Assembly (NCBI GenBank): GCA_026991575.1
Contig: JALXBF010000014.1
Span: 11,467 to 75,466, forward strand
Direction: 5' to 3'
Source: Planctomycetota bacterium
Lineage (GTDB): Bacteria; Planctomycetota; Planctomycetia; JALXBF01
Length of the DNA: 64,000 bases
Part shown: in pieces, positions 50,819-64,000 of the stretch
Layout: each line of letters starts with the position of its first letter
Position numbering within the stretch: the first letter of the stretch is position 1
The notes under the pieces: model-generated
What the model was told of the DNA's origin: nothing
Seen by the model: only the letters and a program-made list of their open reading frames with translations
Database searches by the model: none
Program-made: the position numbers and the translations under genes

Positions 50819-52147
50819 CTACTGGCTCAGGGCATCCTCGTCCAGCGGCGTCTGGAACACGGGCCAGCACTCGTTCATGGCCTTGCTGCCGCCGGCGGGG
50901 GTCATCAGCTTGGCGAAGACCTCACCGTCGATGGAGGTGCTGATCTTCCGGGCCGAGCCATCGCACATGACGATGTTGATGACGCCCGGATGGTTTGAGA
51001 TCAGGTACGGCCAGCCTTCGTCAGCGAAGACCGCGCCGTTGATATTCTCGGGCCAGCCTGCTGGATTCTGGCGGGCGTCTTCGCGGTTGACGCGTCCGAA
51101 GTCTGCGCGCCTGCCCGAGCAGGTCAAGCCTGGTCGGTTGATGTTGAACGGCTTACCGGTCTGGCAATTGCCGCCCTCGGCGCAGAAGTCGTCGCTCATC
51201 CAGAAGCCGACGCGGAACGGGTCAGGCGCAGCCCACGTTCCTTCGTACAGGCCGCTGCCCGGGGCGCCTGGGTGGCTGCTATTCCACCACGCACCTGCCT
51301 GATCCACGTACCCGGCCTTGATGCGTTCGCTCAAGAGGATCGTCGTGGAGGCACCGTCGCGGATACTGGACGGGGTTCTCCGGAGGTCGAAGGGGGTGTT
51401 GCCACGGAGGGTGCCGATGCTGGTCAGGGTCATGTTCTTGGCGGCGATGAGATCCTGGACTGGGGTTGCCCCGGAGAGGTTGAGGGGGTTACCGCTGTTG
51501 TTCACGGGGCTGAACCACAGGGTGGTGAATCCGCCGTTGATCACGTACGTTAGGTTCCCCCGTCCTTGGGTGACGGTGTCATCGTTGGGGCAGACGAGGA
51601 CGTTGAGGTGGCGTTGGCCGAGGGAGTAGTGGCTTTCTTCGGGTCCTTGGGTCGTGAAGTTGCCGGAGCTATCGGGTTCGTCGAACAGAGCGTACCGCCA
51701 GCCTCGGCCCGAGCCTGAGTTGACTTTACTGGTTGCCTGCCATTGTTCGTAGAGGGCCTGTTGTTCGATGAAGGGCAGGATGTCGACGACCCAGCTATGC
51801 AGGGGGAACTGCCAGACGATTTCGTTGACTTTGGTGAGGTCTGGCCAGGTGGCGTTGAAGCCTGGGTGGGCTGCCAGCGGGAGGCCCTGGGTGCCGGTTT
51901 GGTTGAGGCCGTTGCCGGCGGGGTCGTCGTTTTCGGAGGCGAAGGTTCCGAGGTTCGGGTAGCGTCCTTTTTGGGTGACGAAGTTCTGGATGGCCAGGCC
52001 GAGCTGGCGCATGTTGCTCATGCATTGGGTTTGTCGTGCGGCCTCGCGGGCCATCTGGACCGCGGGCAGGATGAGCGATGCGAGGATTGCGATGATGGCG
52101 ATGACGACGAGGAGCTCGATGAGCGTGAATGCTCTACGTTTGGTCAT
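50819..52147 (-). CDS. DUF1559-family protein with a prepilin-type N-terminal cleavage/methylation domain (H-X9-DG family)
   Basis: N-terminal [29 protein letters not shown]-terminal [18 protein letters not shown] = H-X9-DG. This family is hugely expanded in Planctomycetes. Confidence 0.8.
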
Positions 52148-52599
52148 GTTCCACCTCCACCCGGCAGGGCAGCTTGGTTGCTATGGTGTGTCTATTGTAC
52201 GGTTAAGTGCAAAGCCGTTCTGACGATCTGACGGGCCCGCGGGCCCGGGAGGAACCGTCCACCCTGCCGCGGCGGCCACCTCCCGCAACCGTAGCCAGGC
52301 GTCCGGGCACTGAGAGCTTGTCTAGACGGCATTCCGCGCCACATAGTGTCGTCGCGGAGCCCCTTTGTGACACTTCCCGTTCTGTCGTGTCCGTCTTGTG
52401 GAGACGGGTGCCGGCGGGCCGTATCCGTAACGACCCTCGAGCAGCGCATGCCGACGTCGTTCGTCGAGCCCGTCAGCTCACCACCGCGAACCGATGCGCC
52501 AATGCATACACGGCCTCTGCGGCCTCTATCGCAGTATGAACTGCAACGCCGGCTTTGCTTGGTCACAACACCTAGCCCCCGCACCGCACAAACTGCGCA

Positions 52600-55500
52600 C
52601 TACTCGATTATCTCCGAGTAAATCACCACCTTGCGCAGAATCTGTAGGAGCTCTTCTCGGGTCTGTGGTGGTCCGGCCCACCCGTCAGCTCTGCTTCGAT
52701 CAACGACAAAGAACGCCCTGTGACGCACAGGCACTCCCGCATCGGTGCCAATTTCATCGCCCACCATTGGCAAGGCCTCGTCCGCCTCGTCGATCTGGCC
52801 GTCCAAGTCGTTATCGCGTCCATCGAATAATCTCGCGCCTCGAGAGAACAGCGGCACGTATACCACGTCGGTACCCCTGTCGACGGTGTCGTCACGGTTG
52901 TTGTCTAAACCGTCGCCGTCCAAAGAGAGTTCGTCTTCCTCGTCAACCTCTCCGTCACCGTCGTTGTCCACTCCATCCAAGCGCGCAGCTGGGAACCTTG
53001 GCTCTGCGACTTCGAAGAATCCAACCGTGATCCAAACGGCGAACACGCTACTTCTGGTCGTGATAACGTTCCCCAGCCGACGCAAAGGATCGAACAGGTG
53101 ATACGGGTAGCTGTACCGGTTGGGAATGGTGTTCGTGGCTCCGGGCACCAGCCCCTGCCGGTCACCGTTGCTCAGCCCGGGCGGAGCCACAGGTCTCCGG
53201 TCCAAGAGCAGTTGGCCAGCGGGACCGGCTAGTGCGAGAATGGTGTTCGCGATCGGGGCAGAAAAGCTTCGGATCGGCCCCTGCTGACGGAGCTGGTTTA
53301 GGGACATCCATAGTGCGGACTGCTCCGGCGAAGTTATCCCGGCGATTTGCCCGTTACCTGTCTGGACCAGCGCTGCCGGATGATTATTGAGCAACGCTAA
53401 AAGAACCTCCGGATCCGTTACCGTGTTGATGTTGACTTTTCCGGGCACACGCCAGCGACGGCGATCGCCCCCCCCGCCGTCGGAATCTCGGGAACCGTTC
53501 ATCGGGCTTGGGACTTCAACGAGCTCGAGTAAACGATGATAGGTAGGGGCGCGATGCGTTGGGGAGGGCTGTTGCAGGAAGTTCCACATATAGCCGTACA
53601 TGACGTGAGCCACGGGGCCATTTCCATCGAACCCCCAGAACGGCGCCGCGACCCCTGCACCCTGGTTCCCACCCGCGCCAGAGTCGAGCTGCTCCCACTT
53701 CCCGATTTCCACTAGCACATTTGCTGGGGTCGGTAAGGGCACAAAGAAGTCGATCTGTTGGGCACCCTGGTCCGCTTCACTAAGAGCTCGGAACACCGTT
53801 GTCAGCAGCGGCGGAGAAATCGCCGGTACAAGGAAGAGGTCAATTGGGCTGTAGACGGGATGATCGAAAAACACCAGTGGGGTTTCAACCTGGCGACGGT
53901 TCGCATTGGGTGCCCCGAGGGTATGCGGGCGCGCATTCTGCCCGGCGCCTCCCGGGTGCGGTTCGTGGCGGGCGGAGTACGTTTCCACTCGCTCCATGCT
54001 CACGATCCTGTTCTGGTTGTTCTGGCCAGCGTCAGCGAGCCATACCTTGGCACGAAGCACATCCACGGTGATGTATGGATTGGACTGCGCGTCGTGCGGG
54101 TGGCCCGGATGGGCTAGTCTCTGCAGGTAGACGTACATTTCGCGCGTGTTCGGATCCAGCTGCAGCTGCACGCTCTGCGGCAACAGGTCGAGCTCGTAGT
54201 CGACGCGGTCAATGGGAACAGCAGCGCCCTGGGGCGGCGGCCCGAGCACCAGGTACTGGCCAGGACGCAGTACCGGCGGGGGAGTAGGAGCGTTGTCGAA
54301 GGTCACGGTGTACGCCGCCTGTGCGACTTCCCCGGTGATCTCATCCGTGCTAGGTTCCGTGGCCAGGACCAACCGATATACGCCAACGCGCGGTTCGCCG
54401 GCGCGATTGGGCAGGTACTTGTCGAGGGCAATCTCCTGGTCCGAAGCGTTGAACAGCTCGATCCACAGACGGTATTGCGTGGTCTGATTCTGGTTGTTAC
54501 CTCCTTGGTTGCCAATGGATTCCTCGTAAGCCAGCGTCTCGGATATAACAACCTTGGGCTTCTCCACGCCCCACACCACCATCCGATGGACCCCCTCGTT
54601 AGTGGAAAGATTCCCATCCACGTCCCAGCCGTCCAAGGGCCACAGATCAAACTCAAAACCGGTCATAACATCGTCGGGGTCGACGAAGTCTACGAAGTTG
54701 ACCGCATACTGAGCCATTCTTCGCACAAAGTCTTTCGCCGGACCGTCGCTGGTGACGTTGCCCTTCGTCCAGGTCTGCAGCACGTCATCAGGTACGATTG
54801 AAAGCCAAAGCGCAAGATACAGGTCCCGCGCCATGGCCCGAGGGTCGTAGGACGGATCGGGACGGTTTGGGGCAGGTGAGATCGCTGTGCTGGCCCAATA
54901 GGGGAGCTGGTCCCTTGCAGCCGGAGGCATGATCAGCGGGCGATGGAGGTTGAGTCGGCGCCCGCTAGCCAGTTCCATCGGGATCTGGACGTCATCGCTG
55001 CCGGCGCTGCCCAGCTCGGCGGCTTCGTCTACTTGGCCGTTGGTATTGTCATCGTGGAGCGCACGTCCGGGAAGCAGGTCGGCACCTGGATGCCAGACTA
55101 AGCCGTAATCGCCCGGGTCCATTCCGCCGTTTGCCGCCTGCCATTGCTCGCCGATCGGGAGAATCCCGGTCAAGTGTGTTCGCGTGTGCGCCGGCGGTCG
55201 GTTCGCTCCCGCTCGGAATCGCAGTTGCGAAAGTCCAGCAGCACCATCGGAGTTAATTCCGATGGGTGGCAAGCTTGGAACAATGACGTCCCAGCTTTCG
55301 GTCGTCAGCATCCAACGTCGCCGAAGGGCAACCTCAGGAAGATATGGGTCGAAGAGGGAAGGAGCGAGTCGGCTCAGGCGAGCCCGATCCAACAGCCCCC
55401 GCGTCCCGATATCCCCGTAACGGTACAGCAATGCCAGCTCCGAAACTGTGAAGGGCCGGTCTGGACCGGCCAGGTCGGTCCGGTAGACGTTAACTTCGTT

Positions 55501-57153
55501 GGCCTCGTCAAGGTTCTCGTAGGTTTCCTCGCCCAAGCTCGCATCCCAGCCTAGCGCAACGCCGCCCGAGCCAAATCTGGGTAGTGTACTCGGCAGGGTA
55601 ACCCAAGGCCCGTACAACAGGCGGCCTCGCTGGTCAACCCACACGGCCCCGTCCCCGTCCAGGTCCATTGGGGTTCCCGCTGTGAACCAATGTGGCGTAA
55701 CTGTGGTCGCATCCTCCCATGTCAGTCCCGTTTGATTTGAGCCCGGCGAGTATACGAGGGCCCTATAGGGCCGCCACCGCATACCAAGCAGCAGATCGCC
55801 TGACTGGAAACGCAGCATAGCCGGATCGGCGACGTCTGCTGCTTGGGGATACGGGCTAGCACCGTAGCCGACGTCGTCATCCATCGACCCGACTCCTGGA
55901 GGATCAAAGTAGCCGCCCCACCGGCCCGGAACGACTTGCCCGGTCGTAGGATCGAAGAATCCCCGTATAATCCGTGCGTATTCGTAGAGCGAATACCCGC
56001 CTGTGGCGTAGACCTGACGGAAAAACAGCGGATCTGGCGAAAAGACGTTCTGAAGATTCACCTCCGTCGGTGAGGCTCCCTGTCCCGCCGACACTAGACC
56101 CGGAGCAGACACTCGCTGGAGTGCCTCAGCCAGCGTTGTCTGCCGTGCGGGGCTCGCGTCAGGCGGAACCAACAGATGGTCTAGGTGACTGTCGACTAGA
56201 TCTCGATGTTGCTGTCCCTGCCTCTCAGCAGGGTCATCGGCCCGTCCGGGAACGCTGTCCTCGTTGAGCTGCCCATGCACATTCAGGTTCAGTTTGCTGT
56301 CAAGGTCCACAATGAGCACTGCCACCAACGGTTTGTAGAGCTTGCCATCTTGGGTACGAAGGAACGGCAGCCCAGCGTCGATCCAGAAACTGTCTCGGAC
56401 CCCGTCAAGGTCATTGTCGACTTCCAAGACCGGCCCATTTGGGTAGGCACTGACTGGGAATAGGCCAGGGGGGTAAAGTACCCGAGCCAAGACATCTGCT
56501 CCTGATCCACTCAGAGCCGGCCGATGGTAGCTAGGTATCACCGTCGTGTTTAGCGTATTGGTCGTCCGGTCGACGCTACGTGTGATCAAGGCAAGGAACA
56601 TGTTGCTGAGGTCGGGAGCATCGTAGTCTTCGTCGTGTTGTGTGTCCTGGCTCGGGTGATCCGGAGGCAGCGTCGTGAACCGTACACCCGGGGTTCTTCC
56701 ATTTAGTACGTAGTTCACCCTCGCATCGCGGGCACCTAGCCCATTGAACGCTCTCTGATACCGCTCGAACCACTGAATCTTCCCGTCCGGAATGGGGCGG
56801 CCCCGCTCGTCGAACAGGTCGTTATCCGAGCCGTACATGTCGCGCAGGAGTGAGTGGCCGCGTAGCGCAGAAGTTGCGTTATCGGTATCGGCCACGATTT
56901 GACCGAGCACTGCTTCGAAGAGTTCAGCTGGCTCAAGATCGGCAATCGTCCGGCGCACTAGATTCCCGTATTGCTCTGAGGCCGATTGCTCGGCACCCGA
57001 GAGAGCAACGAAAGTGACTGCTAAGACGGAGACGATGGCCAGCAGTGCCAGAACGACGATCAGGGCAATACCCCGTCGTCGGTGCGCTGCCATGCTGCGA
57101 CCCCCGTGTCGACTCCGCAAGAGAAGACTATCTGCGGCGTCAGCACGGCTCAT
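52600..57153 (-). CDS. giant (1517 aa) GspK-like pseudopilin-cluster terminal protein with C-terminal Asp-rich Ca-binding-like repeats
   Basis: The N-terminal RRGIALIVVLALLAIVSVLAVTFVALSGAEQ resembles GspK/PulK N-termini. The C-terminus carries repeated DxDxDG-type loops (DGVDNDGDGEVDEED, DGDGLDNNRDD, DGRDNDLDGQIDEADE). Its start overlaps the upstream gene's stop by 4 bp. Confidence 0.5.
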   Translation of the reverse strand: MSRADAADSLLLRSRHGGRSMAAHRRRGIALIVVLALLAIVSVLAVTFVALSGAEQSASEQYGNLVRRTIADLEPAELFEAVLGQIVADTDNATSALRGHSLLRDMYGSDNDLFDERGRPIPDGKIQWFERYQRAFNGLGARDARVNYVLNGRTPGVRFTTLPPDHPSQDTQHDEDYDAPDLSNMFLALITRSVDRTTNTLNTTVIPSYHRPALSGSGADVLARVLYPPGLFPVSAYPNGPVLEVDNDLDGVRDSFWIDAGLPFLRTQDGKLYKPLVAVLIVDLDSKLNLNVHGQLNEDSVPGRADDPAERQGQQHRDLVDSHLDHLLVPPDASPARQTTLAEALQRVSAPGLVSAGQGASPTEVNLQNVFSPDPLFFRQVYATGGYSLYEYARIIRGFFDPTTGQVVPGRWGGYFDPPGVGSMDDDVGYGASPYPQAADVADPAMLRFQSGDLLLGMRWRPYRALVYSPGSNQTGLTWEDATTVTPHWFTAGTPMDLDGDGAVWVDQRGRLLYGPWVTLPSTLPRFGSGGVALGWDASLGEETYENLDEANEVNVYRTDLAGPDRPFTVSELALLYRYGDIGTRGLLDRARLSRLAPSLFDPYLPEVALRRRWMLTTESWDVIVPSLPPIGINSDGAAGLSQLRFRAGANRPPAHTRTHLTGILPIGEQWQAANGGMDPGDYGLVWHPGADLLPGRALHDDNTNGQVDEAAELGSAGSDDVQIPMELASGRRLNLHRPLIMPPAARDQLPYWASTAISPAPNRPDPSYDPRAMARDLYLALWLSIVPDDVLQTWTKGNVTSDGPAKDFVRRMAQYAVNFVDFVDPDDVMTGFEFDLWPLDGWDVDGNLSTNEGVHRMVVWGVEKPKVVISETLAYEESIGNQGGNNQNQTTQYRLWIELFNASDQEIALDKYLPNRAGEPRVGVYRLVLATEPSTDEITGEVAQAAYTVTFDNAPTPPPVLRPGQYLVLGPPPQGAAVPIDRVDYELDLLPQSVQLQLDPNTREMYVYLQRLAHPGHPHDAQSNPYITVDVLRAKVWLADAGQNNQNRIVSMERVETYSARHEPHPGGAGQNARPHTLGAPNANRRQVETPLVFFDHPVYSPIDLFLVPAISPPLLTTVFRALSEADQGAQQIDFFVPLPTPANVLVEIGKWEQLDSGAGGNQGAGVAAPFWGFDGNGPVAHVMYGYMWNFLQQPSPTHRAPTYHRLLELVEVPSPMNGSRDSDGGGGDRRRWRVPGKVNINTVTDPEVLLALLNNHPAALVQTGNGQIAGITSPEQSALWMSLNQLRQQGPIRSFSAPIANTILALAGPAGQLLLDRRPVAPPGLSNGDRQGLVPGATNTIPNRYSYPYHLFDPLRRLGNVITTRSSVFAVWITVGFFEVAEPRFPAARLDGVDNDGDGEVDEEDELSLDGDGLDNNRDDTVDRGTDVVYVPLFSRGARLFDGRDNDLDGQIDEADEALPMVGDEIGTDAGVPVRHRAFFVVDRSRADGWAGPPQTREELLQILRKVVIYSEIIE

Positions 57154-59228
57154 TGCAACTCCTCCACGATAGTGATCTGCCTTGTTTCTCCGGTCGCCTC
57201 GTCGATGAACCGGATCGTTATTTGGATTGCCTTGAGGGGCAGCGGGTAGGGCATGGCGTAGGCTGTGCCACCTGCCCCGGGCTCAGTGGCCGGCAGACTA
57301 TAGACTGAGCACCACGTGTCATACGTTTGCCACAAGGACTGCGGCGGGGGTAAAAGCGTTGGGACGAATGCATCGGTGTAGGGGCTCTGCGCGTTCCTCC
57401 TGACGTATAGGCCCTGGAAGCCAAGCCACGGATACCCGAACCCTGGCCCACCGATCTCAACGGGCGATCCATTGGTCGATCCATTGCGAAGGCGGACCAC
57501 ATGACGAGGCAGGGGAGGCCACAGCCGATTCCGGTACGCCACGTGCGGTTCTTGCGGTGGAGGCGCGATTGTGTCCGCCGACAAGAGGGCGTCTGGCTGG
57601 ATGACCAACGGGTCCAGGGGCCATGGGGATAGAGCGATCATGGCCGTGTTCCATTCGAGGACGCGGTCGTTGAGGTTGCTTTCGCCAACCCAGCCGGCGC
57701 CGGGCAGTGGCCCAGGTGGGGGCCCGTTCGCCCCATAGGGATCCAGTGCTTGATATCCCAGGTCAACGAACGCGCCAGGGCCATAAGCACCTTGTTGCTG
57801 CGCCCCCAGGCTGGGGGCGCCGCCTGTCGGATCCCACACTTTGACATCGAAAGACACAACGTTTTGCAAGAGAACATCCTCTGCGGCCCGCAGGGGATCG
57901 GTTGCGGCCCCGGCGTTGCCAGGAGCCCATGGATCGAAGCGTCTTAGCCCACCGGGGAGGCGCAGCGCCGTTGTGATGCTCGGCGTCCATCGGCCTCCGG
58001 CGAACTGGTTCGGATAGTCCCAACCAGGCGCCGATGACTCGCGCAACGTCGGACGCCCCCACCAAATCTCCTCCGTGGCAGCAACGGGACTGCCTCCCCC
58101 TGGATACGGAACCCCAGCGCCACTGGTCGCATTTTCCCACGATCGGTCCCGAGTCGCTGCAGAATGGTCTAGGGTGTCATGGCAGCCATTCGGCAGCACT
58201 CTATCGTCGAATGACAATCCGACATCGCCTGTGGGCGTCGGACCGAACGGAAAGTTCGGGTCAGCGGGGCTGTCAGCAGCAAGGCCCGAAAGTAGGTAGC
58301 CAGCGGGTGCGGTCATGCCGTACCTTGTACTGCGGTATGTCAGGTCGCCTAGCGTGTTGACAACGGGAACGGTGCCGCCGACAGATGGGGGACGGGCTGA
58401 AATATCGTACTGCGCATACCAAGAAATCGCGGGGTTGTAGAAGGCGGCAGAGGGTTGAGGAGTGTCTACCAGTAGGACCCGCCGGTACAGCGTGCCCTGG
58501 CGGACAAAATAGATCACTTCGGCATAAGGCGAGCTGGTCAGTCCATCGTCTGGCGGAGGCAACGCTCGGTCAGGCTCACTGCCGGGCACACAGCGGCCTA
58601 TGTAGCCGGCCCACGGTTCTGGAGAGCGGCTCCCCGTGGCGGAGAGGCTCACTGTGAAGGCAAGTACGTCGTCGCCATCCTCGCCTTGCTCGTCGGCTGG
58701 GGAATTCTCCTCGATCATGAAGTACCCCGCGTTCTCCCGGGGATCTACCCCCACCGGCACATAGTACTCGATGTACACGTCGTCACTGCCTGGCGCGCCA
58801 AGCTCGTCTCGGTCGATGATAAACACTGTGCTCTGCCCGGGGCCCGCCTCGGGTATGAAATCTCGGTATCCGTCACCGTCGTCGTCGACTCCTGCTCTAC
58901 CGGGTCGCGAGTCCGGACCCGGAAGCCACCGGCCTACCTTGACCGCTCGTGGAGAGACCGACCGGATGGTACGGTGGCGGAGGTCGAAACGAAGGGTGGA
59001 CTCGACAAAACGGATGCGTTCCAGCAGCACGTGACTAGCGCGCAGCTGGCGTGCTGCATCTGACGCCATGCCGACGACCTGGCCGACGATGGCCATCATC
59101 AGCATTAGGAGCGCCACAGCGACGAGCATCTCGACGAGCGTCAGCGCTCGTCGGCTCCGCAGCGCCCCTCCGCTCGGCCACCACCTCCCAGAACCGACAA
59201 CATGTGTAATGGTCGGCGGATTCTTCAT
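57150..59228 (-). CDS. enlarged pseudopilin-like protein (~693 aa) with a class-III signal peptide
   Basis: ATG at 59228 in an ATGA overlap with the upstream stop. RSRRALTLVEMLVAVALLMLMMAIV prepilin-type motif. Internal GRAGVDDDGDGYRDF Ca-loop-like motif. Confidence 0.6.
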   Translation of the reverse strand: MKNPPTITHVVGSGRWWPSGGALRSRRALTLVEMLVAVALLMLMMAIVGQVVGMASDAARQLRASHVLLERIRFVESTLRFDLRHRTIRSVSPRAVKVGRWLPGPDSRPGRAGVDDDGDGYRDFIPEAGPGQSTVFIIDRDELGAPGSDDVYIEYYVPVGVDPRENAGYFMIEENSPADEQGEDGDDVLAFTVSLSATGSRSPEPWAGYIGRCVPGSEPDRALPPPDDGLTSSPYAEVIYFVRQGTLYRRVLLVDTPQPSAAFYNPAISWYAQYDISARPPSVGGTVPVVNTLGDLTYRSTRYGMTAPAGYLLSGLAADSPADPNFPFGPTPTGDVGLSFDDRVLPNGCHDTLDHSAATRDRSWENATSGAGVPYPGGGSPVAATEEIWWGRPTLRESSAPGWDYPNQFAGGRWTPSITTALRLPGGLRRFDPWAPGNAGAATDPLRAAEDVLLQNVVSFDVKVWDPTGGAPSLGAQQQGAYGPGAFVDLGYQALDPYGANGPPPGPLPGAGWVGESNLNDRVLEWNTAMIALSPWPLDPLVIQPDALLSADTIAPPPQEPHVAYRNRLWPPLPRHVVRLRNGSTNGSPVEIGGPGFGYPWLGFQGLYVRRNAQSPYTDAFVPTLLPPPQSLWQTYDTWCSVYSLPATEPGAGGTAYAMPYPLPLKAIQITIRFIDEATGETRQITIVEELQ

Positions 59229-60751
59229 CGGCCACCCACAATGGTTTGATACGCCATGACCGCACGGGGTAACAACACCAGTGCCCCAAGACCACCGCGC
59301 CCTTGAGTGGCTGCCCAGGGGCCTGCCCAGAGAGCCTCCGCGTCGCCCTCGATCACCACCCATAGGACTGGCCCCAAGTTTGGATCGGAAACTCTCACCG
59401 TTTCAGCCACGCGGTACACATACGCGTGCCTCGGAGCGGCCGCCCTCGAGTAGTCCCTGGGCGGCTCCTGACGGCCACCAAGATTCACGTACGTAGCATC
59501 CAGAACATACGAACCCTTCGGTATACGGAGCCCCTCGTTGGTGGCACGCGGTTGGAACGCACCATGGTTCCCAATAGGAATGCGCAGGACGTTAGCCGGC
59601 GCGTCGTCACTGCCGGGCCAACCCAGCTCCGCCCAATCAATAAGTCCCCGATCAATACGCCCGCTCCTGACGCGCGGCTTAAACACAAAGTCTGTGATGC
59701 CGTTGCCGTCGTCATCGACGCCGGCTCTGCCTGGGGCGCCGTCCGGGCCGACTGGAAAGACAAACGGCACGGTGACGGGCGGCTCTTGGAAATCCCGCTC
59801 TCGAAAGGCCACGATGGTTACTCGGAATGGGCCCACCGGAATGTCCGTTTCAAGCCCAGGTAGAAGTCCGGTGAGCTGATCGGGAGGTTCCTGCTGCGGG
59901 GCGGGCCCGTACTCACCGTCACTACCGGGCAAGTGCCATTCCTCGCCTGCGTCGCTGTCGGAATCGTTGCTCACGCGGTCATAATAAGCCGGCGCGAACG
60001 TCTGGCTGGTTTTTTGAATGATCGCGAACCATGTGTATCGGAGCTTCCTCGGCAATGTTCCCGGGGCATACAGAGGCCCCGACGTCGGCCTGAGGAATGC
60101 CCTGCTGCCGTAGGCAACCAGTTCGGCAGGTTGCGAAAGTCTGGCCTGGAATGGCAGATAGGGATAGTTCGGGTGCCAGTACAACCGATCGGGAGCCGAG
60201 AACATGCTCCGTGCCAGCACTCGGGCGGCGGCTAAACCGCTTTGGGCCTGCGCCCTCTGAATGGCGTATCCGCGATACCTTGGAAGACCGTGGTAGAGTA
60301 CTTGTCCTTGCGAGTCCTGCAATCTGCCTAGCCTTGTTTCATCCGGACATGGATATTCCGGAAGGGTGGCTAACGTGCTGTTCTCGAGAATTCCCAGCGG
60401 ATCAATCACCACCGGAATTCCCGGCCGTGCTCCCTCCACTAAGACCCACTCCACCTGCTGAACCGGGTCTCGCACCGTTCCGTCCGGCTGCACGGGGTCC
60501 GCGATGTAAGCATTCGCAATCGCCCCCCAAGGCGGGGCATACAGCGGCCCGGCGATCGAGATCGCTCGGGCAGTTCTGGCAAGAACCGCGCCTCTCGTGT
60601 CGTCTGTGGCCCGGCCCAGGCGTGCGAGCCCTACCGGGAACAGGGCCGCTAGCGAGATCAGTCCAACCGCCAGCAAGAACATGGCGATCAGTATCTCTAT
60701 GAGGGACAAGCCCCCTCGCTTTGTCCGGCAACTAAACGTTCGACCTTCCAC
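59225..60751 (-). CDS. enlarged pseudopilin-like protein (508 aa) with a class-III signal peptide
   Basis: GTG start. KRGGLSLIEILIAMFLLAVGLISLAAL prepilin motif (canonical Gly at -1). Internal GRAGVDDDGNGITDF motif shared with the downstream paralog. Confidence 0.6.
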   Translation of the reverse strand: MEGRTFSCRTKRGGLSLIEILIAMFLLAVGLISLAALFPVGLARLGRATDDTRGAVLARTARAISIAGPLYAPPWGAIANAYIADPVQPDGTVRDPVQQVEWVLVEGARPGIPVVIDPLGILENSTLATLPEYPCPDETRLGRLQDSQGQVLYHGLPRYRGYAIQRAQAQSGLAAARVLARSMFSAPDRLYWHPNYPYLPFQARLSQPAELVAYGSRAFLRPTSGPLYAPGTLPRKLRYTWFAIIQKTSQTFAPAYYDRVSNDSDSDAGEEWHLPGSDGEYGPAPQQEPPDQLTGLLPGLETDIPVGPFRVTIVAFRERDFQEPPVTVPFVFPVGPDGAPGRAGVDDDGNGITDFVFKPRVRSGRIDRGLIDWAELGWPGSDDAPANVLRIPIGNHGAFQPRATNEGLRIPKGSYVLDATYVNLGGRQEPPRDYSRAAAPRHAYVYRVAETVRVSDPNLGPVLWVVIEGDAEALWAGPWAATQGRGGLGALVLLPRAVMAYQTIVGGR

Positions 60752-60765
60752 AGATTCCCGCCTCG

Positions 60766-61767
60766 CTACGGTACAAGTAGACCTGGGACAATGGAGCTTG
60801 TTAGTGCTCTATCCACCGCCCTGTGGGCCGCGTCCGGATCAGCCAATCCTGGCTGAAACACCGACACTGTGCCAGTTCGTGCGCTAAGAGCTACAACACG
60901 ATAATCTGCGTTCTCATCGCTGTTCCTTCGCTCGGTCGTGATCCAGAACTTGATATACGACCGCAGGGCAGCCTCTCCCACGATCTGACCAGTGGGGGCG
61001 AAGAGGATATCCATAGGGCGCCCGCTACTCGGGTCCTGGTTCGGTATTCCGCGGCTCAACTGGGGGTTAAGCCCGACGTCGATGTATGTACCAACGGGCA
61101 GAGACAATGCGGGAACAGTGTCCAGCCGCGGTGGGTTGAAGATCTGGTAGGACCGTGCCTGAGTTGTTTCGTGGGGCAACGGCGTGCCCGGGAAGGTCCG
61201 TATGCGCATGTACAACCCTTGGGTGTCCCGACCCACCTCCTCTACCAAGTACAACGGTCCTGCGTAATCAAACCGTATCCAAGCCTGACCGACCACGACC
61301 CGCGGAACGTCGTCGTCGGCGCTGTTCGGGTCAGGGCCCGGGTCGACGTAATCCCAGAGCGGATCGCCCCCCACTGGCCGAACCTCTGCCTGCGTCGTCG
61401 TCACCCTACGCACGAAAACATGCCCCTCGCTGAAAGGATCTGGGGTAGCCACAAATTGGAGGATGCGTACACTGTTGGGCCGTCCTTCCTCTCGTACGAG
61501 GCGCACGCCATAGATCCTGCCCGTGGCCATGGCCCTCTCACGTGCCATTCGCAGGCCTTGTACCACCAGCCGTGTCGCAGCAGGAACACCGGTAGCGTCC
61601 GACCACACAACGAACAACACGCTGATCGCAACAACCGAGAAGGCCAACAGGAGGACGACGACAACAAGGAACTCGACGAGCGTCAGCGCTCGCCGAAGGT
61701 TCCCCGAGCGCGGCGCTGCTTCAAGCCGATCCATCCGTTTGGTTGGCCGAGCTACTGCGCTTCCCAT
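60766..61767 (-). CDS. enlarged pseudopilin-like protein (322-333 aa) with a class-III signal peptide
   Basis: LRRALTLVEFLVVVVLLLAFSVVAISVL prepilin motif. Two possible ATG starts, at 61767 and 61734. Confidence 0.6.
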   Translation of the reverse strand: MGSAVARPTKRMDRLEAAPRSGNLRRALTLVEFLVVVVLLLAFSVVAISVLFVVWSDATGVPAATRLVVQGLRMARERAMATGRIYGVRLVREEGRPNSVRILQFVATPDPFSEGHVFVRRVTTTQAEVRPVGGDPLWDYVDPGPDPNSADDDVPRVVVGQAWIRFDYAGPLYLVEEVGRDTQGLYMRIRTFPGTPLPHETTQARSYQIFNPPRLDTVPALSLPVGTYIDVGLNPQLSRGIPNQDPSSGRPMDILFAPTGQIVGEAALRSYIKFWITTERRNSDENADYRVVALSARTGTVSVFQPGLADPDAAHRAVDRALTSSIVPGLLVP

Positions 61768-62879
61768 AGCGTGCTCGCTGTGTGGTTGTCCAGGTTGTCC
61801 GCGTCAGCCCCGACTTCGCTGGAAGTACCAGGCGAAGGCAAATCGCGAAGGCGGGTGGCTGAGCGGTCGAAGTAAGACGGATCGTTAGGATCGCGCATCA
61901 GCCCGAAAAGTCCATCCGGACCCGCTGACACGATGAGCGGATACAACCGATAGGCAAAAGGGCGTTGCCTATTGGGCCAAAGTGTGATCGGAAAGAGCGC
62001 CTCATCGACAACCTGCCAGCCTCCCGGCCCCCGAGTAATGTACACGGGGTCGGTGACAAGCCCGGCAGGGTCCAGCAAGCTACCACTGACCGTGGGAACC
62101 GGAGGCTTTCCCTTCGCCGGCTGAAGAGACGACCTGTAGCCGTATGGGCAAAGGAAGAACAGTATCGGGTTGTCCCAGGCATCCACGATTTCCAGCAGCC
62201 CGTCGCCGTCGGAATCTCGGAGATTGCTATCCGGAATCCCAGGGACCGTTCCTGTTTCAGGGTCGTCCGCTACGATCACGTACAGACATTCCGCACGGGC
62301 AGTTTCCGGCTGATGATTGGCTAATGTTCCGTTAGTCGCTGCCCGCTCCAGGATCGCGATAAATCGTTGTGCCCCAGGGGGCAGCTCTGCCCGACTCTGA
62401 GCCCGCCGACACATGGGATCGCTGAGTGCGCTGCCCGGATCAAGGGGCGCGAAGTCCCCATTGACCCAGACGCTACCCAACTGGAGCGGGCTGTGGTACC
62501 GGTACTGCTGATTGCCAATCAGGAATAGCTCCGGTAGCTCCTGTCGCACCGTCCTCAATCGTGCTACAACCGTGGCCCGACGCCGAGCGGACTCGCTGTA
62601 GCTGCAATCGCTTCGATCTAGTGAAAGGGACATGTCGACCGGCAGGACACGGGCACGACTCCCCCTGCTCGCCTGCTGAAACTTCTGGTAGACTAGCTGG
62701 TCCAACACACTGATGATTCGCTGTGTCGCGCGTATCTTCGCACGCTCGGCCAATTGTGTTACCCCCCCAAAGCGCAGCACAAACGCCGCGACGATTGCAA
62801 TAAGCGCCATCACCACGAGTATCTCTACCAGCGTCACAGCTTGGCGCGCCTTTGGCGAGGGCTGGCGCAAGAGTGCCAT
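61752..62879 (-). CDS. enlarged GspG-like pseudopilin (375 aa)
   Basis: N-terminal RQAVTLVEILVVMALIAIVAAFV. C-terminal SAGPDG...GADADNLDN resembles the GspG Ca-binding GxDGxxG...DADI tail. Its start overlaps the upstream stop by 1 nt (TAATG). Confidence 0.6.
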   Translation of the reverse strand: MALLRQPSPKARQAVTLVEILVVMALIAIVAAFVLRFGGVTQLAERAKIRATQRIISVLDQLVYQKFQQASRGSRARVLPVDMSLSLDRSDCSYSESARRRATVVARLRTVRQELPELFLIGNQQYRYHSPLQLGSVWVNGDFAPLDPGSALSDPMCRRAQSRAELPPGAQRFIAILERAATNGTLANHQPETARAECLYVIVADDPETGTVPGIPDSNLRDSDGDGLLEIVDAWDNPILFFLCPYGYRSSLQPAKGKPPVPTVSGSLLDPAGLVTDPVYITRGPGGWQVVDEALFPITLWPNRQRPFAYRLYPLIVSAGPDGLFGLMRDPNDPSYFDRSATRLRDLPSPGTSSEVGADADNLDNHTASTLWEAQ

Positions 62880-64000
62880 TAGAGATCTCCAAGCGAACGG
62901 TCTGCGAAGTTAGTCAGGTTATCTTCTTCAACAGCCCGACTCTCGCCCAGCGTACAGGCCGATGGCAGGCCGTTCGTCCGCGACCAGGCACCGCCGCACC
63001 CAAATAATCCGTCTACGCCTGGCGAAATGATCTGGAACGACTTTCCGCGCCAGTAGAGGGGATGCCGTAGTAGGGCCTGATTGCCAGTGTGATAGGGCCT
63101 TCCCTGCGTGTATGGGTTGGGTCCCGGGCTGACATTCAGGACCACCTGCCCTTCCAGGCGCTGAAAGGCACTGGGATAGTCTGTCATGTCCCACTTCACC
63201 CGGAAAGCTTCCCGTGTCTCGTCCGCCAGGTTCCAGTCATCGGGCCGATATCCGGCTCCTTCGTACGCGGAGAAGTAGGCATAGCCCCGATTACCGTCCC
63301 TCCGTACTGGCAGGTACTCCCAGAACCCGTTAGGCGCGGTCCCCGCACCGCCGTCAATGAGGCGGGAAGTATCGAACTCGAAGAATGGACCGACTCGCTC
63401 GTATGGAGTCCCGTCCGCCGGGTTCACGAGTCGCGTTGGGTCGCCGGGAAACACGCTGAATCCCTGCACCCCGGGCGGCACAGCCTCCTTGCCCGGGTTG
63501 GTCGGAGACGGAGGTTCGCGCAGGCCTAACCCCCCCGGGTAGTCACCGATCGGGATACCACCCAGGAAGAAAACCAAACATTCATCCCCGCTAAGGGCGA
63601 ACGCTGTAGGGGCACCAGGCGGGTTCCCGTCGCCGTTCCAGTCGTAAAAGTCCAGCGGTGAGTTCCTAGGGTTGCCATCACCGTCCAGATCCAACGGCGG
63701 CGGTCCCGTCTCGCTGATCATAAGCTCCGGCCAAATGCGTCTCAAATAGTAGACACTCAGCGACCGGCTGAACACGGCATCCCTCGTAATCAAGTACTCA
63801 CCGTCCGCGCCAATAGCATCGGGAATAACGTTATCCTCAAAGAGCCGCCGCCAGTTGTCTGGTGAATAGTCACCGTTCTCAATAAGAACGATCTGGCTCG
63901 GAGGATAGACACCAAATTCCGCCTGAAACTGGTGGAGCGATATTTCCAGCAGCCTGACTTCTGAACGCTCCTGGGCTTCCCGTACGTTCCTGTAGGCGCC
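62879..64000 (-). CDS. hypothetical protein, first gene of the pseudopilin operon as seen; N-terminus lies beyond the window
   Basis: The reading frame stays open upstream of the listed TTG at 63793, to the window end. Contains DLDGDGN/WNGDGN Ca-loop-like motifs. It is translationally coupled to the next gene. Confidence 0.45.
   Translation of the reverse strand, partial: GAYRNVREAQERSEVRLLEISLHQFQAEFGVYPPSQIVLIENGDYSPDNWRRLFEDNVIPDAIGADGEYLITRDAVFSRSLSVYYLRRIWPELMISETGPPPLDLDGDGNPRNSPLDFYDWNGDGNPPGAPTAFALSGDECLVFFLGGIPIGDYPGGLGLREPPSPTNPGKEAVPPGVQGFSVFPGDPTRLVNPADGTPYERVGPFFEFDTSRLIDGGAGTAPNGFWEYLPVRRDGNRGYAYFSAYEGAGYRPDDWNLADETREAFRVKWDMTDYPSAFQRLEGQVVLNVSPGPNPYTQGRPYHTGNQALLRHPLYWRGKSFQIISPGVDGLFGCGGAWSRTNGLPSACTLGESRAVEEDNLTNFADRSLGDL

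What the first reader, a model, noticed from the sequence alone, without database searches (positions are those of the whole stretch)
52600..57153. 1517-aa GspK-like terminal protein with thrombospondin-type-3-like DxDxDG calcium loops
The last gene of the operon has a GspK-like, probably uncleaved, N-terminal anchor and then ~1450 residues of unassigned sequence. Its C-terminal ~120 residues hold at least three Asp-rich loops (DGVDNDGDGEVDEED, DGDGLDNNRDDTVD, DGRDNDLDGQIDEADE) matching the DxDxDGxxDxxD calcium-binding consensus. A giant tip protein is reminiscent of PilY1-class adhesins in T4P systems, but here it is fused to a K-type pseudopilin N-terminus. This is a candidate tip adhesin or cap.
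Basis: partly seen in the sequence, partly recalled or inferred. Interest (0 to 1): 0.6.

Follow-up and report, generated by a model that had tools for sequence, protein, structure and literature searches.

The report
Giant GspK-type pilus tip protein
This 1517-residue protein of a planctomycete is most likely an oversized version of the cap subunit (GspK/PilX class) that sits at the tip of type IV pilus-like filaments. Its three C-terminal aspartate-rich "calcium loops" are a recent, lineage-specific duplication, not a defining feature.

Summary
The ORF (52600-57153, minus strand, 1517 aa) and its Asp-rich loops are real. DxDxDG occurs 4 times against 0.10 expected.

The protein belongs to a very large, unannotated, Planctomycetota-restricted family: about 4000 clusters at 50% identity, typically 1500-2100 aa, with no Pfam or NCBIfam model.

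Profile-profile comparison links the family to GspK, collinear over GspK 4-284. Probability is 93.5% with a natural 635-aa member and 95-97% with conserved blocks. The two top Foldseek PDB hits for that member are GspK structures, but neither is significant.

Further support:
- It is the only one of seven pilin-like genes in the locus that lacks Glu+5.
- It follows G/H/I/J-like genes, downstream of two PilB/GspE-like ATPases, a PilT-like ATPase and a PilC/GspF-like platform protein.
- It ends in a strongly conserved C-terminal strand.

It is not the last gene: a DUF1559 prepilin gene follows.

The C-terminal loops sit in the hairpin between the last two core strands. They resemble EF-hand loops, not TSP3. 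Only 4 of 196 relatives have any, the target alone has several, and a 50-nt DNA repeat marks the duplication. AlphaFold2 gives them low confidence.

A different DxDxDG motif (aa 246-257) is conserved in 79% of the family.

Verdict: a new variant of a known kind, of moderate interest.

The parts
52600..57153 (-). Whole ORF, 1517 aa: giant K-type (GspK/PilX class) minor pilin
57070..57153 (-). Leader peptide, aa 1-28, ending RRRG. It is the putative prepilin-peptidase site (G28|I29). An alternative start at M21 would give an 8-aa leader.
   Evidence: (G28 >=90% conserved)
56998..57069 (-). Hydrophobic alpha1-N helix, aa 29-52 (IALIVVLALLAIVSVLAVTFVALS). Position +5 is Val, not Glu.
   Evidence: aligns to GspK 4-44; +5 is V/L/I/F in 126/126 relatives
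56377..56424 (-). Family-conserved DxDxDG motif, aa 244-259 (EVDNDLDGVRDSFWID): the best candidate for a conserved Ca site
   Evidence: present in 100 of 126 full-length relatives
56272..56307 (-). aa 283-294, DLDSKLNLNVHG. Aligns with the GspK motif D-x-q-x-cFNLNaL (GspK 98-109).
55633..55665 (-). Second DxDxDG, aa 497-507 (DLDGDGAVWVD). PxDxDG is partly conserved in the family.
54988..55071 (-). Degenerate copy, aa 695-722 (GRALHDDNTNGQVDEAAELGSAGSDD), of the G-x-A-G-V-D-D-D-G-D-G...E-L-G-x-P-G-S-D-D module also found in the I- and J-like neighbours
54655..54720 (-). aa 812-833, RMAQYAVNFVDFVDPDDVMTGF. Aligns with GspK 140-158 (iaDwiDxD motif of the alpha-domain).
54034..54660 (-). Inserted Ig-like beta-sandwich, about aa 832-1040, resembling the lamin tail domain
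   Evidence: Pfam LTD, E 0.031, below cut-off; strands, pLDDT mostly 78-91; 3umn_B, prob 0.96, E 0.013
53803..53874 (-). aa 1094-1117, VFFDHPVYSPIDLFLVPAISPPLL. Aligns with GspK 176-196 (n-x-p-l-x-s-x-x-EL-x-x-V-x-G).
53380..53445 (-). aa 1237-1258, PGKVNINTVTDPEVLLALLNNH. Aligns with the GspK iNvNTA helix-hairpin motif (GspK ~208-230). G1238, N1241 and N1243 are invariant.
53008..53061 (-). Core beta-strands, aa 1365-1382 (TTRSSVFAVWITVGFFEV): the most conserved block of the family. Aligns with GspK S-x-yF-x-l strand (~274-284).
   Evidence: (strand, pLDDT ~76)
52930..52977 (-). Asp loop 1, aa 1393-1408 (DGVDNDGDGEVDEEDE): the ancestral copy, shared with P0002, P0003 and P0241
52879..52920 (-). 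Asp loop 2, aa 1412-1425 (DGDGLDNNRDDTVD): degenerate, unique to this protein
   Evidence: 14-nt repeat D3
52777..52824 (-). Asp loop 3, aa 1444-1459 (DGRDNDLDGQIDEADE): a duplicate of loop 1
   Evidence: (50-nt direct repeat, 72% identity, 153 nt = 51 codons apart)
52693..52728 (-). Core beta-strand, aa 1476-1487 (VRHRAFFVVDRS); R1477, D1485 and R1486 are invariant
52603..52632 (-). Extreme C-terminal strand, aa 1508-1517 (KVVIYSEIIE-COOH): candidate in-cis 'C-beta' strand that completes the pilin sheet
   Evidence: searches (strand at model 711-716, pLDDT 81-83; I at -2 in 188/218, E at -1 in 177/218; kept at the very end even when an extra domain is inserted before it), PMC13533445
57150..59228 (-). 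J-like minor pilin (692 aa as called; the ORF extends to 59363). Class III signal RRA|LTLVE, with a GVDDDGDG module.
59225..60751 (-). I/PilV-like minor pilin, 508 aa. Signal G|LSLIE, with a GVDDDGNG...ELGWPGSDD module.
60766..61767 (-). H-like minor pilin, 333 aa, signal A|LTLVE
61752..62879 (-). Pilin-like protein, 375 aa, signal A|VTLVE, with DSDGDG and a GspG-like GPDGLFG motif
62879..64000 (-). G-like pilin gene, 427 aa in full, cut by the window end; signal A|FTLVE lies outside the window
50819..52147 (-). DUF1559/SBP_bac_10 prepilin, 442 aa, signal RRA|FTLIE, directly downstream of the target
   Evidence: same arrangement and locus L007

Best explanation
The gene encodes the K-type (GspK / PilX / PilK class) minor pilin of a planctomycetal type IV filament machine.

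Proposed mechanism:
1. (Inferred) The protein inserts into the inner membrane through its class III signal. Prepilin peptidase probably cleaves it after Gly28.
2. (Shown: no Glu+5. Inferred: position.) Because it lacks Glu+5, it would take the most apical position in the filament.
3. (Inferred) Its own conserved C-terminal strand (...VVIYSEIIE) completes its pilin beta-sheet in cis. The I- and J-like minor pilins (508 and 692 aa) then dock, followed by the H-like one. This forms the initiation and tip complex on which the major pilin polymerises.
4. (Shown: gene content. Inferred: role.) Assembly is driven by the two PilB/GspE-like ATPases encoded upstream, and the fibre is retracted by the PilT-like one.
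5. (Inferred; ligand unknown) Relative to a ~325-aa GspK, about 1000-1200 extra residues are inserted at several points around the GspK alpha-domain. They include an Ig-like beta-sandwich at aa ~832-1040. These domains would be displayed at the fibre tip as a cap and ligand-binding head.

Calcium loops:
- DxDxDG-type loops are a general trait of the pilin-like proteins in this locus, and calcium binding is already known in GspK/XcpX.
- The family-conserved site is at aa 246-257.
- The three C-terminal loops are an EF-hand-loop-like insertion in the last core hairpin. It arose in a small clade and was duplicated in this lineage. It probably rigidifies that surface loop with Ca2+ and is not part of the core mechanism.
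For: Homology to GspK:
- A profile centred on P0084, a natural 635-aa family member, matched a profile of 45 GspK sequences with no editing. P0084 342-589 aligned to GspK 103-286 at Prob 93.5%, P 2.2e-7. The N-terminus (1-69 to 1-70) aligned at Prob 74.6%.
- The conserved blocks of the family, concatenated, aligned collinearly to GspK 4-284 at Prob 97.2%, E 3.3e-11.
- Without the N-terminal helix the result held: Prob 95.5%, P 1.4e-8. The reversed control gave P 0.17. Permuted block orders scored 29-54 against 69.
- With the unedited target-centred profile, five of the six best local matches fall in GspK order: aa 24-95, 281-292, 815-833, 1097-1117 and 1238-1377.
- For the AlphaFold2 model of P0084, the two best of 350,542 PDB chains are ETEC GspK (3ci0_K, E 0.087, 310 columns) and XcpX/GspK (9a1f_T, E 0.44).

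Class III signal:
- The leader RRG|(V/I)xLxVVL was recognisable in 126 full-length relatives. None has Glu at +5 (V 83, L 23, I 19, F 1).
- The other six pilin-like genes of the locus all have Glu+5.
- K-type pilins 'invariably lack Glu at +5' (PMC13533445).

Locus:
- The gene order is E(MshEN+T2SSE), PilT-like (373 aa), E, F, G427, 375, H333, I508, J692, K1517, DUF1559.
- The same order occurs in Paludisphaera borealis and in the P0084 locus.
- T2SSF and prepilin genes lie upstream on the same strand in many of 49 genome loci.

C-terminal strand:
- It is modelled as a strand with pLDDT 81-83.
- Ile at -2 occurs in 188/218 relatives and Glu at -1 in 177/218. The strand is kept at the extreme end even in the 21 members with a 115-240-aa domain inserted before it.
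- This matches the in-cis C-beta model for GspK, CpaL and ComZ (PMC13533445).

Calcium:
- GspK/XcpX bind Ca2+ at two canonical sites and one extra site (PMC6211770).
- DxDxDG is enriched: 4 found against 0.10 expected. It is also present in the G-, 375-aa, I- and J-like proteins.
- The motif at aa 246-257 occurs in 100/126 relatives.
Against: - No Pfam T2SSK/T2SSK_1st hit for the target, its C-terminal third, or five relatives, even at permissive thresholds.
- No GspK hit when the family HMM was searched against PDB sequences.
- The Foldseek matches to GspK are not significant (prob 0.16, TM <0.2). The target's own C-terminal model (aa 800-1517) gave no GspK match at all.
- I picked the blocks for the strongest HH result from the family conservation profile, but with GspK motifs in mind. 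The unedited P0084 test is the cleaner one.
- No secretin, prepilin peptidase or PilMNOP genes were seen in the window or in the 8.7 kb upstream.
- Cleavage, tip location, ligand binding and Ca binding are all untested.
- If translation starts at M1, the leader is 28 aa, which is long for a type IVa-like prepilin.
Confidence: 0.78

Rival explanations
1. The protein caps a short periplasmic type II secretion pseudopilus (a piston) rather than an extended, retractile surface pilus. It would then act as a plug or substrate-pushing head, not an adhesin.
For: The conserved motifs are those of the GspK alpha-domain (iaDwiDxD, ELxxVxG, iNvNTA), which T4aP PilX proteins lack (PMC7248040). The G-like genes carry GspG-like S/G-x-D-G-x-x-G motifs. 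The E proteins are GspE/MshE-like.
Against: A 373-aa PilT-like ATPase (T2SSE domain only) sits between the two E genes. A comparable third T2SSE-only ATPase (516 aa) is in the P0084 locus, and retraction ATPases are absent from T2SS (PMC7248040). No GspC/D/L/M genes are adjacent. A ~160-kDa head seems ill-suited to a periplasmic piston (inference).
Confidence: 0.15
2. The protein is an uncleaved bitopic inner-membrane protein, or a Sec-exported surface protein. It is only co-located with pilin genes, and its similarity to GspK is limited to a generic hydrophobic N-terminus.
For: All library HMMs hit only the N-terminal helix: PilX_N E 0.067, and TIGR02600 aa 28-73. There are no significant structural matches.
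Against: HH similarity persists without the helix: Prob 95.5% with blocks, and 93.5% for P0084 342-589. Gly(-1) is >=90% conserved. The hydrophobic stretch is 23 residues, and AlphaFold2 models residues 2-46 of P0084 as one continuous helix with pLDDT 80-96 over the first 30 residues; this is longer than a Sec h-region. Synteny is conserved in distant genera.
Confidence: 0.07
3. The protein is a PilY1/PilC-class non-pilin tip adhesin.
For: It is large, has Ca-type loops near the C-terminus and has a conserved C-terminal strand. PilY1 has an EF-hand-like Ca site (Orans et al. 2010, cited in PMC13533445).
Against: No PilY1/Neisseria_PilC beta-propeller or vWA hit. It has a class III-type signal and GspK motifs instead.
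Confidence: 0.03
4. A sub-claim about the tract only: the C-terminal Asp-rich tract (aa 1391-1459) is a disordered acidic surface loop with no specific calcium coordination.
For: pLDDT is <50 over model residues 616-660, with no regular structure. The tract is absent from 192 of 196 relatives. There is no Pfam repeat hit apart from Cu-binding_MopE at E 1.5. PDB matches are not significant.
Against: Loops 1 and 3 match the 12-residue EF-hand/dockerin-type pattern. They have D at positions 1, 3, 5, 9 and 12, G at 6 and V/I at 8. One copy is conserved in the nearest relatives at 40-42% overall identity. The duplicate has kept the motif although its DNA has diverged to 72% identity, which suggests selection.
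Confidence: 0.35

Closest known systems
GspK / XcpX (T2SS minor pseudopilin K; Pfam PF21687 + PF03934; PDB 3CI0 chain K)
   Same: - Class III signal with Gly(-1) and a hydrophobic +5.
- Collinear motifs: NLN, D-x-i-D-x-D, EL-x-x-V-x-G, iNvNT, and the terminal S-x-x-F strand.
- Gene position after G, H, I and J.
- C-terminal strand supplied in cis.
- Calcium binding is known in GspK/XcpX (PMC6211770).
   Different: - It is 4.7 times longer, with about 1000-1200 residues inserted at several points, including an Ig-like sandwich.
- It does not reach any Pfam or NCBIfam GspK model.
- It sits in a locus with a PilT-like ATPase and without GspC/D/L/M.
K-type minor pilins with inserted adhesin or ligand domains and an in-cis C-beta strand: CpaL (Tad, ~600 aa) and ComZ (Thermus) (PMC13533445, PMC8179133)
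   Same: - A pilin module carries a large extra domain.
- There is no PilY1 in the locus.
- The extreme C-terminal strand is conserved.
- A subset of the family (21 of 218) even has a domain inserted between the sheet and the last strand, as in CpaL.
   Different: - Here most of the extra mass is placed in or around the GspK-type alpha-domain in the middle of the sheet, not before the last strand.
- The size is 2.5-4 times larger.
- No sequence similarity to CpaL or ComZ was tested.
Verru_Chthon cassette protein A (TIGR02600), with cassette proteins B, C and D
   Same: It is a giant (~1300 aa) protein following three prepilin-type genes in PVC-superphylum bacteria. The weak N-terminal hits of the target and its neighbours are to cassette proteins A, D, B and C respectively. 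UniRef uses this name for the P. borealis homolog.
   Different: The score is 20.8 bits against a cut-off of 332.3, and covers only the first 47 model positions. Six homologs give no hit at all.
PilY1 / PilC tip adhesins
   Same: A large tip-associated protein with an EF-hand-like Ca site and a C-terminal strand that completes the K-pilin sheet.
   Different: PilY1 is not a pilin and has a beta-propeller. The target has a pilin-type N-terminus and no propeller hit.
DxDxDG calcium loops of EF-hand proteins, dockerins, subtilases and thrombospondin type 3 repeats
   Same: The pattern D-x-D-x-D-G-x-(I/V)-D-x-x-(D/E) is present in loops 1 and 3. The neighbours' GRAGVDDDGNG module resembles a GRKGVDDDSNG stretch in a subtilisin structure (8coy_A, E 1.1). 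That this stretch is a Ca loop is my own recall, not checked.
   Different: There are no flanking EF helices, no TSP3 cysteines and no Pfam hit. All the matches are at motif level only and are not significant.

Membership tests
GspK / T2SSK (K-type minor pseudopilin) | Class III signal: Gly at -1, hydrophobic alpha1-N, and no Glu at +5 | tested here: met
   RRRG|IALIV, with Val at +5. G28 is >=90% conserved. +5 is V/L/I/F in 126/126 relatives. All six other pilin-like genes of the locus have Glu+5.
GspK / T2SSK (K-type minor pseudopilin) | Match to Pfam PF03934/PF21687 or an NCBIfam GspK model above cut-off | tested here: not met
   No hit at E<=0.1 to 10 for the target, its C-terminal third, or relatives.
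GspK / T2SSK (K-type minor pseudopilin) | Detectable homology of the globular part (alpha-domain plus sheet) to GspK | tested here: met
   hhalign gave Prob 93.5% (P 2.2e-7) for the unedited P0084-centred profile, Prob 95.5% for blocks without the helix, and 97.2% with it. Reversed and permuted controls scored lower.
GspK / T2SSK (K-type minor pseudopilin) | Pilin fold with an inserted alpha-domain, as in PDB 3CI0_K | tested here: inconclusive
GspK / T2SSK (K-type minor pseudopilin) | Encoded after G, H, I and J pseudopilin genes, next to the E and F genes | tested here: met
   the same. The H/I/J assignments rest on gene order and on weak N-terminal NCBIfam hits only.
GspK / T2SSK (K-type minor pseudopilin) | C-terminal beta-strand supplied in cis (PMC13533445) | tested here: inconclusive
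   A strand is predicted at aa 1510-1515 with pLDDT 81-83, and the terminus is strongly conserved. Its pairing with the sheet and with the J-like protein was not modelled.
GspK / T2SSK (K-type minor pseudopilin) | Processing by prepilin peptidase and incorporation at the filament tip | not testable with these tools
   Needs N-terminal mass spectrometry and immuno-EM.
Thrombospondin type 3 repeat (PF02412) | Pfam TSP_3 match; DxDxDGxxDxxD with paired cysteines | tested here: not met
   No TSP_3 hit at E<=10 on the C-terminal 323 aa. The tract has no Cys.
EF-hand | Helix-loop-helix with a 12-residue loop; Pfam EF-hand models | tested here: not met
   The loop pattern is present in loops 1 and 3. 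But there is no Pfam hit, no flanking helices and pLDDT <50. Centrin and calcineurin B matches are E 0.45-1.7.
Generic DxDxDG calcium-binding loop | D-x-[DN]-x-[DN]-G with an acidic residue at position 9 (and 12), more often than chance | tested here: met
   4 strict sites against 0.10 expected, and 2 full 12-residue matches against 0.00 expected. Actual Ca binding was not tested.
Verru_Chthon cassette protein A (TIGR02600) | NCBIfam model score >= 332.3 bits | tested here: not met
   20.8 bits, model positions 1-47 only. No hit for six homologs.
PilY1 / PilC | C-terminal beta-propeller (PF05567); no pilin signal | tested here: not met
   No Pfam hit. A class III-type signal is present.
Lamin tail domain (PF00932) Ig-like fold, for the insert at aa ~832-1040 | Pfam LTD above 34.3 bits, or a fold match | tested here: inconclusive
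   Pfam gave 15.1 bits, E 0.031. Foldseek gave 3umn_B, prob 0.96, E 0.013. The beta-sandwich is modelled with pLDDT mostly 78-91.

The most novel reading that the evidence does not exclude
These giant K-type pilins, one or more per genome across Planctomycetota, are the tip heads of the pili-like fibres that emerge from planctomycetal crateriform structures. Those fibres were seen to bind dextran (PMC5394234), and a 2025 review still describes the mechanisms and players of uptake as unknown (PMC12673574). In this reading, the >1000-residue inserted domains are the ligand-capturing module of a PilB/PilT-driven 'fishing' system that pulls macromolecules into the enlarged periplasm, and the DxDxDG loops give the tip complex calcium-dependent rigidity.
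Probability: 0.15. Interest if true: 0.8.

Novelty: new variant of a known kind. Interest (0 to 1): 0.5.

Why it matters
K-type minor pilins cap and prime every well-studied type IV filament, and recent work shows that they, or PilY1, license assembly through a C-terminal strand.

This analysis adds an unannotated, phylum-wide family with no Pfam or NCBIfam model. It has about 4000 clusters at 50% identity and at least 542 loci among species-representative genomes. In it, the cap subunit has grown to 1500-2600 residues while keeping the GspK motifs and the terminal strand.

The family gives a concrete gene to delete or label when asking what planctomycetal fibres are made of and how these bacteria capture macromolecules. 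It would also extend the known size range of 'modular' pilins: the most extreme case cited in the InterPro survey of PMC8179133 is 860 residues.

The calcium-loop feature that prompted the finding matters less. It is a lineage-specific duplication.

Tried and rejected
- Pfam and NCBIfam scans of the target, its C-terminal third and relatives gave nothing above cut-off. The hits were PilX_N, LTD, TIGR02600 and Cu-binding_MopE, all weak.
- The family HMM against PDB sequences gave only a chance F17-G lectin match at E 0.31.
- Foldseek of the target's aa 800-1517 model against PDB gave no GspK match, only Ig-like folds.
- One large alignment call failed.
- A word-indexed search with the C-terminal profile returned mostly fragments, but it yielded P0084, the 635-aa natural 'mini' member.
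- TSP3, EF-hand domain, PilY1 propeller and vWA were considered and rejected for lack of any hit.
- Regions aa 300-800 and 880-1090 show no HH similarity to GspK and are treated as insertions.
- I first thought the downstream DUF1559 gene was universally syntenic. tblastn found it directly downstream in only 2 of 64 genome loci, although it is present in the three loci with gene calls.
- No tandem repeats explain the Asp tract. A dispersed 50-nt direct repeat does.
- A literature search for 'Verru_Chthon cassette' found nothing. Korotkov & Hol 2008 is not held. I therefore could not check whether the family's VDFxDxDD motif corresponds to the canonical GspK calcium site.


Full report
THE OBSERVATION

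The ORF is real. It runs from 52600 to 57153 on the minus strand and encodes 1517 aa. Its ATG is preceded by GGAGGA and overlaps the stop of the upstream gene as ATGA. An identical protein is called on three public metagenome contigs.

The N-terminus reads MSRADAADSLLLRSRHGGRSMAAHRRRG|IALIVVLALLAIVSVLAVTFVALSGAEQ.

The C-terminal tract holds three Asp-rich loops:
- loop 1, DGVDNDGDGEVDEEDE (aa 1393-1408);
- loop 2, DGDGLDNNRDDTVD (aa 1412-1425);
- loop 3, DGRDNDLDGQIDEADE (aa 1444-1459).

DxDxDG occurs four times in the protein against 0.10 expected from shuffles. The full 12-residue pattern occurs twice against 0.00 expected. The motif observation is therefore far beyond chance.

Two details of the observation are wrong:
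- The gene is not the last of the operon. A DUF1559/SBP_bac_10 prepilin gene (50819-52147, MTKRRA|FTLIELL) follows 453 nt downstream on the same strand. No terminator-like site was found in between.
- The body of the protein is not featureless (see below).

THE LOCUS

The window ends inside the first pilin gene. The public contig shows the whole cluster, in this order:
- a 572-aa ATPase (MshEN + T2SSE domains);
- a 373-aa ATPase with the T2SSE domain only (PilT-like);
- a 573-aa MshEN + T2SSE ATPase;
- a 413-aa T2SSF platform protein;
- five pilin-like genes of 427, 375, 333, 508 and 692 aa;
- the 1517-aa target;
- the DUF1559 prepilin.

All six other pilin-like proteins have a class III signal with Glu at +5: A|FTLVE, A|VTLVE, A|LTLVE, G|LSLIE, A|LTLVE and A|FTLIE. 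Only the target has a hydrophobic +5 (G|IALIV).

NCBIfam gives weak, N-terminal-only hits. These are GspH / Verru_Chthon D for the 333-aa protein, PilV / cassette B for the 508-aa protein, cassette C / XpsI for the next, and cassette A for the target.

The same gene order is found around the homolog in Paludisphaera borealis and around P0084, a 635-aa homolog. Prepilin and T2SSF genes lie upstream on the same strand in many of 49 genome loci.

The rest of the window is housekeeping and typical planctomycete genes. There is no secretin, prepilin peptidase or PilMNOP.

THE FAMILY

The first search found 65 relatives of 1240-2605 aa. All that carry names are from Planctomycetota, and none has a Pfam domain on record.

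A profile of the C-terminal 323 aa found 3977 clusters at 50% identity with E<=1e-3, and 2041 with E<=1e-30, among 1.84 billion representatives. A single peptide pattern found at least 542 confirmed loci among GTDB species genomes. Of the 80 kept, nearly all are Pirellulales, Planctomycetaceae, Gemmataceae, Thermoguttaceae or Mariniblastus. Median length is about 1790 aa and the smallest complete member is 635 aa.

Conserved blocks in the target:
- aa 21-112;
- aa 240-300;
- aa 540-620;
- aa 720-740;
- aa 800-880;
- aa 1000-1040;
- aa 1086-1125;
- aa 1196-1262;
- aa 1281-1312;
- aa 1350-1386;
- aa 1460-1517.

IS IT GspK-LIKE BEYOND THE ANCHOR?

Library HMMs say nothing. There is no T2SSK hit, and the family HMM finds no GspK among PDB sequences.

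Profile-profile comparison does show a link. I built a 45-sequence GspK alignment from a search seeded with E. coli K-12 GspK and ran hhalign locally.
- The cleanest test used the alignment centred on the natural 635-aa member P0084, with no editing. P0084 342-589 aligned to GspK 103-286 at Prob 93.5%, P 2.2e-7. The N-terminus (1-69 to 1-70) aligned at Prob 74.6%.
- The family's conserved blocks, concatenated, aligned collinearly with GspK 4-284 at Prob 97.2%, E 3.3e-11.
- Without the N-terminal helix the result held at Prob 95.5%, P 1.4e-8. The reversed control gave P 0.17, and 20 permuted block orders scored 29-54 against 69.
- With the unedited target-centred profile, five of the six best local matches fall in GspK order: aa 24-95, 281-292, 815-833, 1097-1117 and 1238-1377.

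The matched motifs are the hallmarks of GspK:

| Target family | GspK |
|---|---|
| DLDxrLNLN | DxqxcFNLNaL |
| AQxAVNxVDFxDxDD | laxxiaDwiDxD |
| DRPxxSPxELxxVP | anxplxsvsELrxvxG |
| PGKiNlNT | iNvNTA |
| TTRSnvFAVWvTV | vxSxyFxl |

Structure prediction gave weaker support.
- The AlphaFold2 model of P0084 (pLDDT 60, pTM 0.65) has GspK chains as its two best Foldseek hits among 350,542 PDB chains. These are 3ci0_K (E 0.087) and 9a1f_T (E 0.44). This is the right family, but the matches are not significant.
- The model of target aa 800-1517 (pLDDT 65) gave no GspK hit. It showed a confident Ig-like sandwich at aa ~832-1040 resembling the lamin tail domain (3umn_B, prob 0.96). It also showed the C-terminal strands at pLDDT 70-83.

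I conclude that the protein is a true but very divergent GspK-class homolog. About 1000-1200 residues are inserted, mainly at aa 112-240, 300-800 and 880-1086. These regions show no similarity to GspK.

THE ENDS OF THE PROTEIN

Gly at -1 is >=90% conserved. In 126 full-length relatives with a recognisable leader, the +5 residue is V, L, I or F and never Glu. PMC13533445 states that K-type pilins 'invariably lack Glu at +5', which implicates them as the most apical subunit.

The extreme C-terminus is also conserved...(I/V)(L/R)(L/Y)(R/K)R(F/R)IE-COOH. Ile occurs at -2 in 188/218 relatives and Glu at -1 in 177/218. In the 21 members that carry an extra 115-240-aa domain after the last core strand, the strand is still at the very end.

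This fits the published model. Where there is no PilC/PilY1, the K homolog (GspK, CpaL, ComZ-type) donates its own C-terminal strand to complete its sheet and license tip-complex assembly. Large domains may be inserted upstream of that strand (PMC13533445).

'Probably uncleaved' is therefore not the likelier reading. The site looks like the GspK site, but cleavage cannot be tested here.

THE ASP-RICH LOOPS

The loops lie in the hairpin between the two most conserved C-terminal strands...FAVWITVGFFEV and RHRAFFVVDRS. That hairpin is 31-63 residues long in relatives (median 32) but about 100 in the target.

Among 196 relatives in which both strands were located, only four have a DxDxDG loop there. 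These are the target and its nearest relatives P0002, P0003 and P0241, which have one copy each. P0004 has a partial copy.

A 50-nt direct repeat of 72% identity, spaced 153 nt (51 codons), links loops 1 and 3. A 14-nt repeat links loops 1 and 2. The three loops therefore arose by local duplication of one ancestral loop.

AlphaFold2 gives the tract pLDDT <50. Pfam finds no TSP_3 or EF-hand domain. The only hit is the C-terminal half of the MopE 'putative metal-binding motif', at E 1.5. The closest solved sequences are EF-hand loops of calcineurin B, caltractin and centrin, and those matches are not significant.

At motif level, loops 1 and 3 have D at positions 1, 3, 5, 9 and 12, G at 6 and V/I at 8. 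This is the EF-hand/dockerin type, not TSP3, and there are no cysteines. No geometry is predicted and the loops are not conserved across the family, but they are conserved in the nearest orthologues.

CALCIUM-TYPE LOOPS ELSEWHERE IN THE LOCUS

Calcium-type loops are nevertheless a theme of the locus.
- The motif at aa 246-257 (VDNDLDGVRDSFW) is present in 100 of 126 full-length relatives.
- PxDxDG at aa ~497 is partly conserved.
- The G-like, 375-aa, I-like and J-like proteins each carry a DxDxDG.
- The I- and J-like proteins share a module, GRAGVDDDG(D/N)G...ELGxPGSDD. A degenerate copy lies at aa 695-722 of the target, and one or two copies occur in P0002 and P0003. Its first half resembles a GRKGVDDDSNG stretch in a subtilisin structure (8coy_A, E 1.1, not significant).

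GspK and XcpX are known to bind calcium at two canonical sites and one extra site (PMC6211770). Calcium binding by a K-type pilin is therefore expected rather than novel.

MECHANISM AND COMPARISON WITH KNOWN SYSTEMS

Best-supported reading, confidence about 0.78: this is the K-type cap and initiator subunit of a PilB/PilT-type type IV filament machine. It assembles with the I-, J- and H-like neighbours through an in-cis C-terminal strand. It displays about 1000 or more residues of inserted domains at the fibre tip.
- Shown: homology at the profile level, the signal type, the gene order and the conservation patterns.
- Inferred: cleavage, tip location, ligand binding and Ca binding.

It works like GspK, CpaL and ComZ. 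It fails the formal Pfam and NCBIfam membership tests for GspK and for Verru_Chthon cassette protein A (20.8 against 332.3 bits). I therefore file it as a new, giant variant of the K-type minor pilin class, not as a member of the curated GspK family.

The main rival is a periplasmic T2SS pseudopilus cap (0.15). The PilT-like ATPase and the absence of GspC/D/L/M argue against it.

The most novel reading not excluded is that these proteins head the dextran-binding fibres of planctomycetal crateriform structures, whose components are still unknown (PMC5394234, PMC12673574). I put this at about 0.15.

VERDICT

The TSP3 label, the 'uncleaved' guess and the weight put on the C-terminal loops are not supported. 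Interest is moderate (0.5). The value lies in the unannotated phylum-wide family, not in the loops.

Noticed in passing
window 59225-60751 (aa ~340-390 of the 508-aa protein), 57150-59363 (aa ~155-200 in 737-aa ORF numbering) and 54988-55071 (target aa 695-722): A shared module, G-R-A-G-V-D-D-D-G-(D/N)-G-x-x-D ... E-L-G-x-P-G-S-D-D, recurs in the I-like, J-like and K-type proteins. It also occurs once or twice in homologs P0002 and P0003. Its first half resembles a GRKGVDDDSNG stretch in a subtilisin structure (8coy_A, E 1.1, not significant). It looks like a mobile Ca-loop cassette shared among the tip pilins.
   Followed up: partly
L006 2294-7134 (same contig, beyond the window end at 64000): The locus encodes two MshEN+T2SSE ATPases with a 373-aa T2SSE-only (PilT-like) ATPase between them. 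The same triple is found in the P0084 locus (L005 689-6098). This suggests a retractile filament rather than a T2SS.
   Followed up: partly
window 50819-52147: A DUF1559/SBP_bac_10 prepilin gene lies directly downstream of the K-type gene. The same is seen in P. borealis (L004), the P0084 locus (L005) and L007, but by tblastn in only 2 of 64 genome loci. It could be the major pilin of this system in some lineages.
   Followed up: partly
window 52192-52584 (minus strand): A 130-aa GTG ORF fills most of the 453-nt gap between the target and the DUF1559 gene. It has no Pfam hit and is not called on the public contigs. It is probably not a gene.
   Followed up: partly
window 62879-64000: The listed 304-aa TTG ORF is really the 3' part of a 427-aa G-like pilin gene that runs off the window. 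The frame is open to base 64000, and the N-terminus (TA|FTLVEML) lies outside.
   Followed up: yes
Family members P0022, P0033, P0046, P0048, P0050, P0052, P0054-P0057, P0060, P0063, P0064, P0074-P0076, P0078, P0080: A sub-family has an extra 115-240-aa domain inserted between the last core strand (..DR) and the terminal strand (..VVPYFxIID/E or ..VVPFWxRLR). This matches the CpaL/ComZ-type insertion position.
   Followed up: partly
L029 and L063 (both on CAVVPN010000011.1, Gemmataceae MAG): One genome carries two loci of the family about 1.2 Mb apart, so paralogous K-type giants exist within one organism.
   Followed up: no
L041, L052, L084: Family hits occur on short contigs of MAGs labelled Alcaligenaceae, Sporichthyaceae and Candidatus Nealsonbacteria. 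These are most likely binning contamination by planctomycete contigs rather than a real wider distribution.
   Followed up: no
window 27510-29564 and 23221-26565: The window also holds a rhamnogalacturonan lyase family 11 gene and a 1114-aa DUF7133-HEAT-cytochrome c protein. Both are typical of polysaccharide-degrading Planctomycetota. The remainder is housekeeping (HisG, PRPP synthetase, 2-oxoacid:ferredoxin oxidoreductase, deoxyhypusine synthase).
   Followed up: no
P0019 (Paludisphaera borealis homolog): UniRef names this protein 'Verru_Chthon cassette protein A', but the current NCBIfam TIGR02600 model gives no hit at E<=0.1. The name is not reproducible with the present model.
   Followed up: yes
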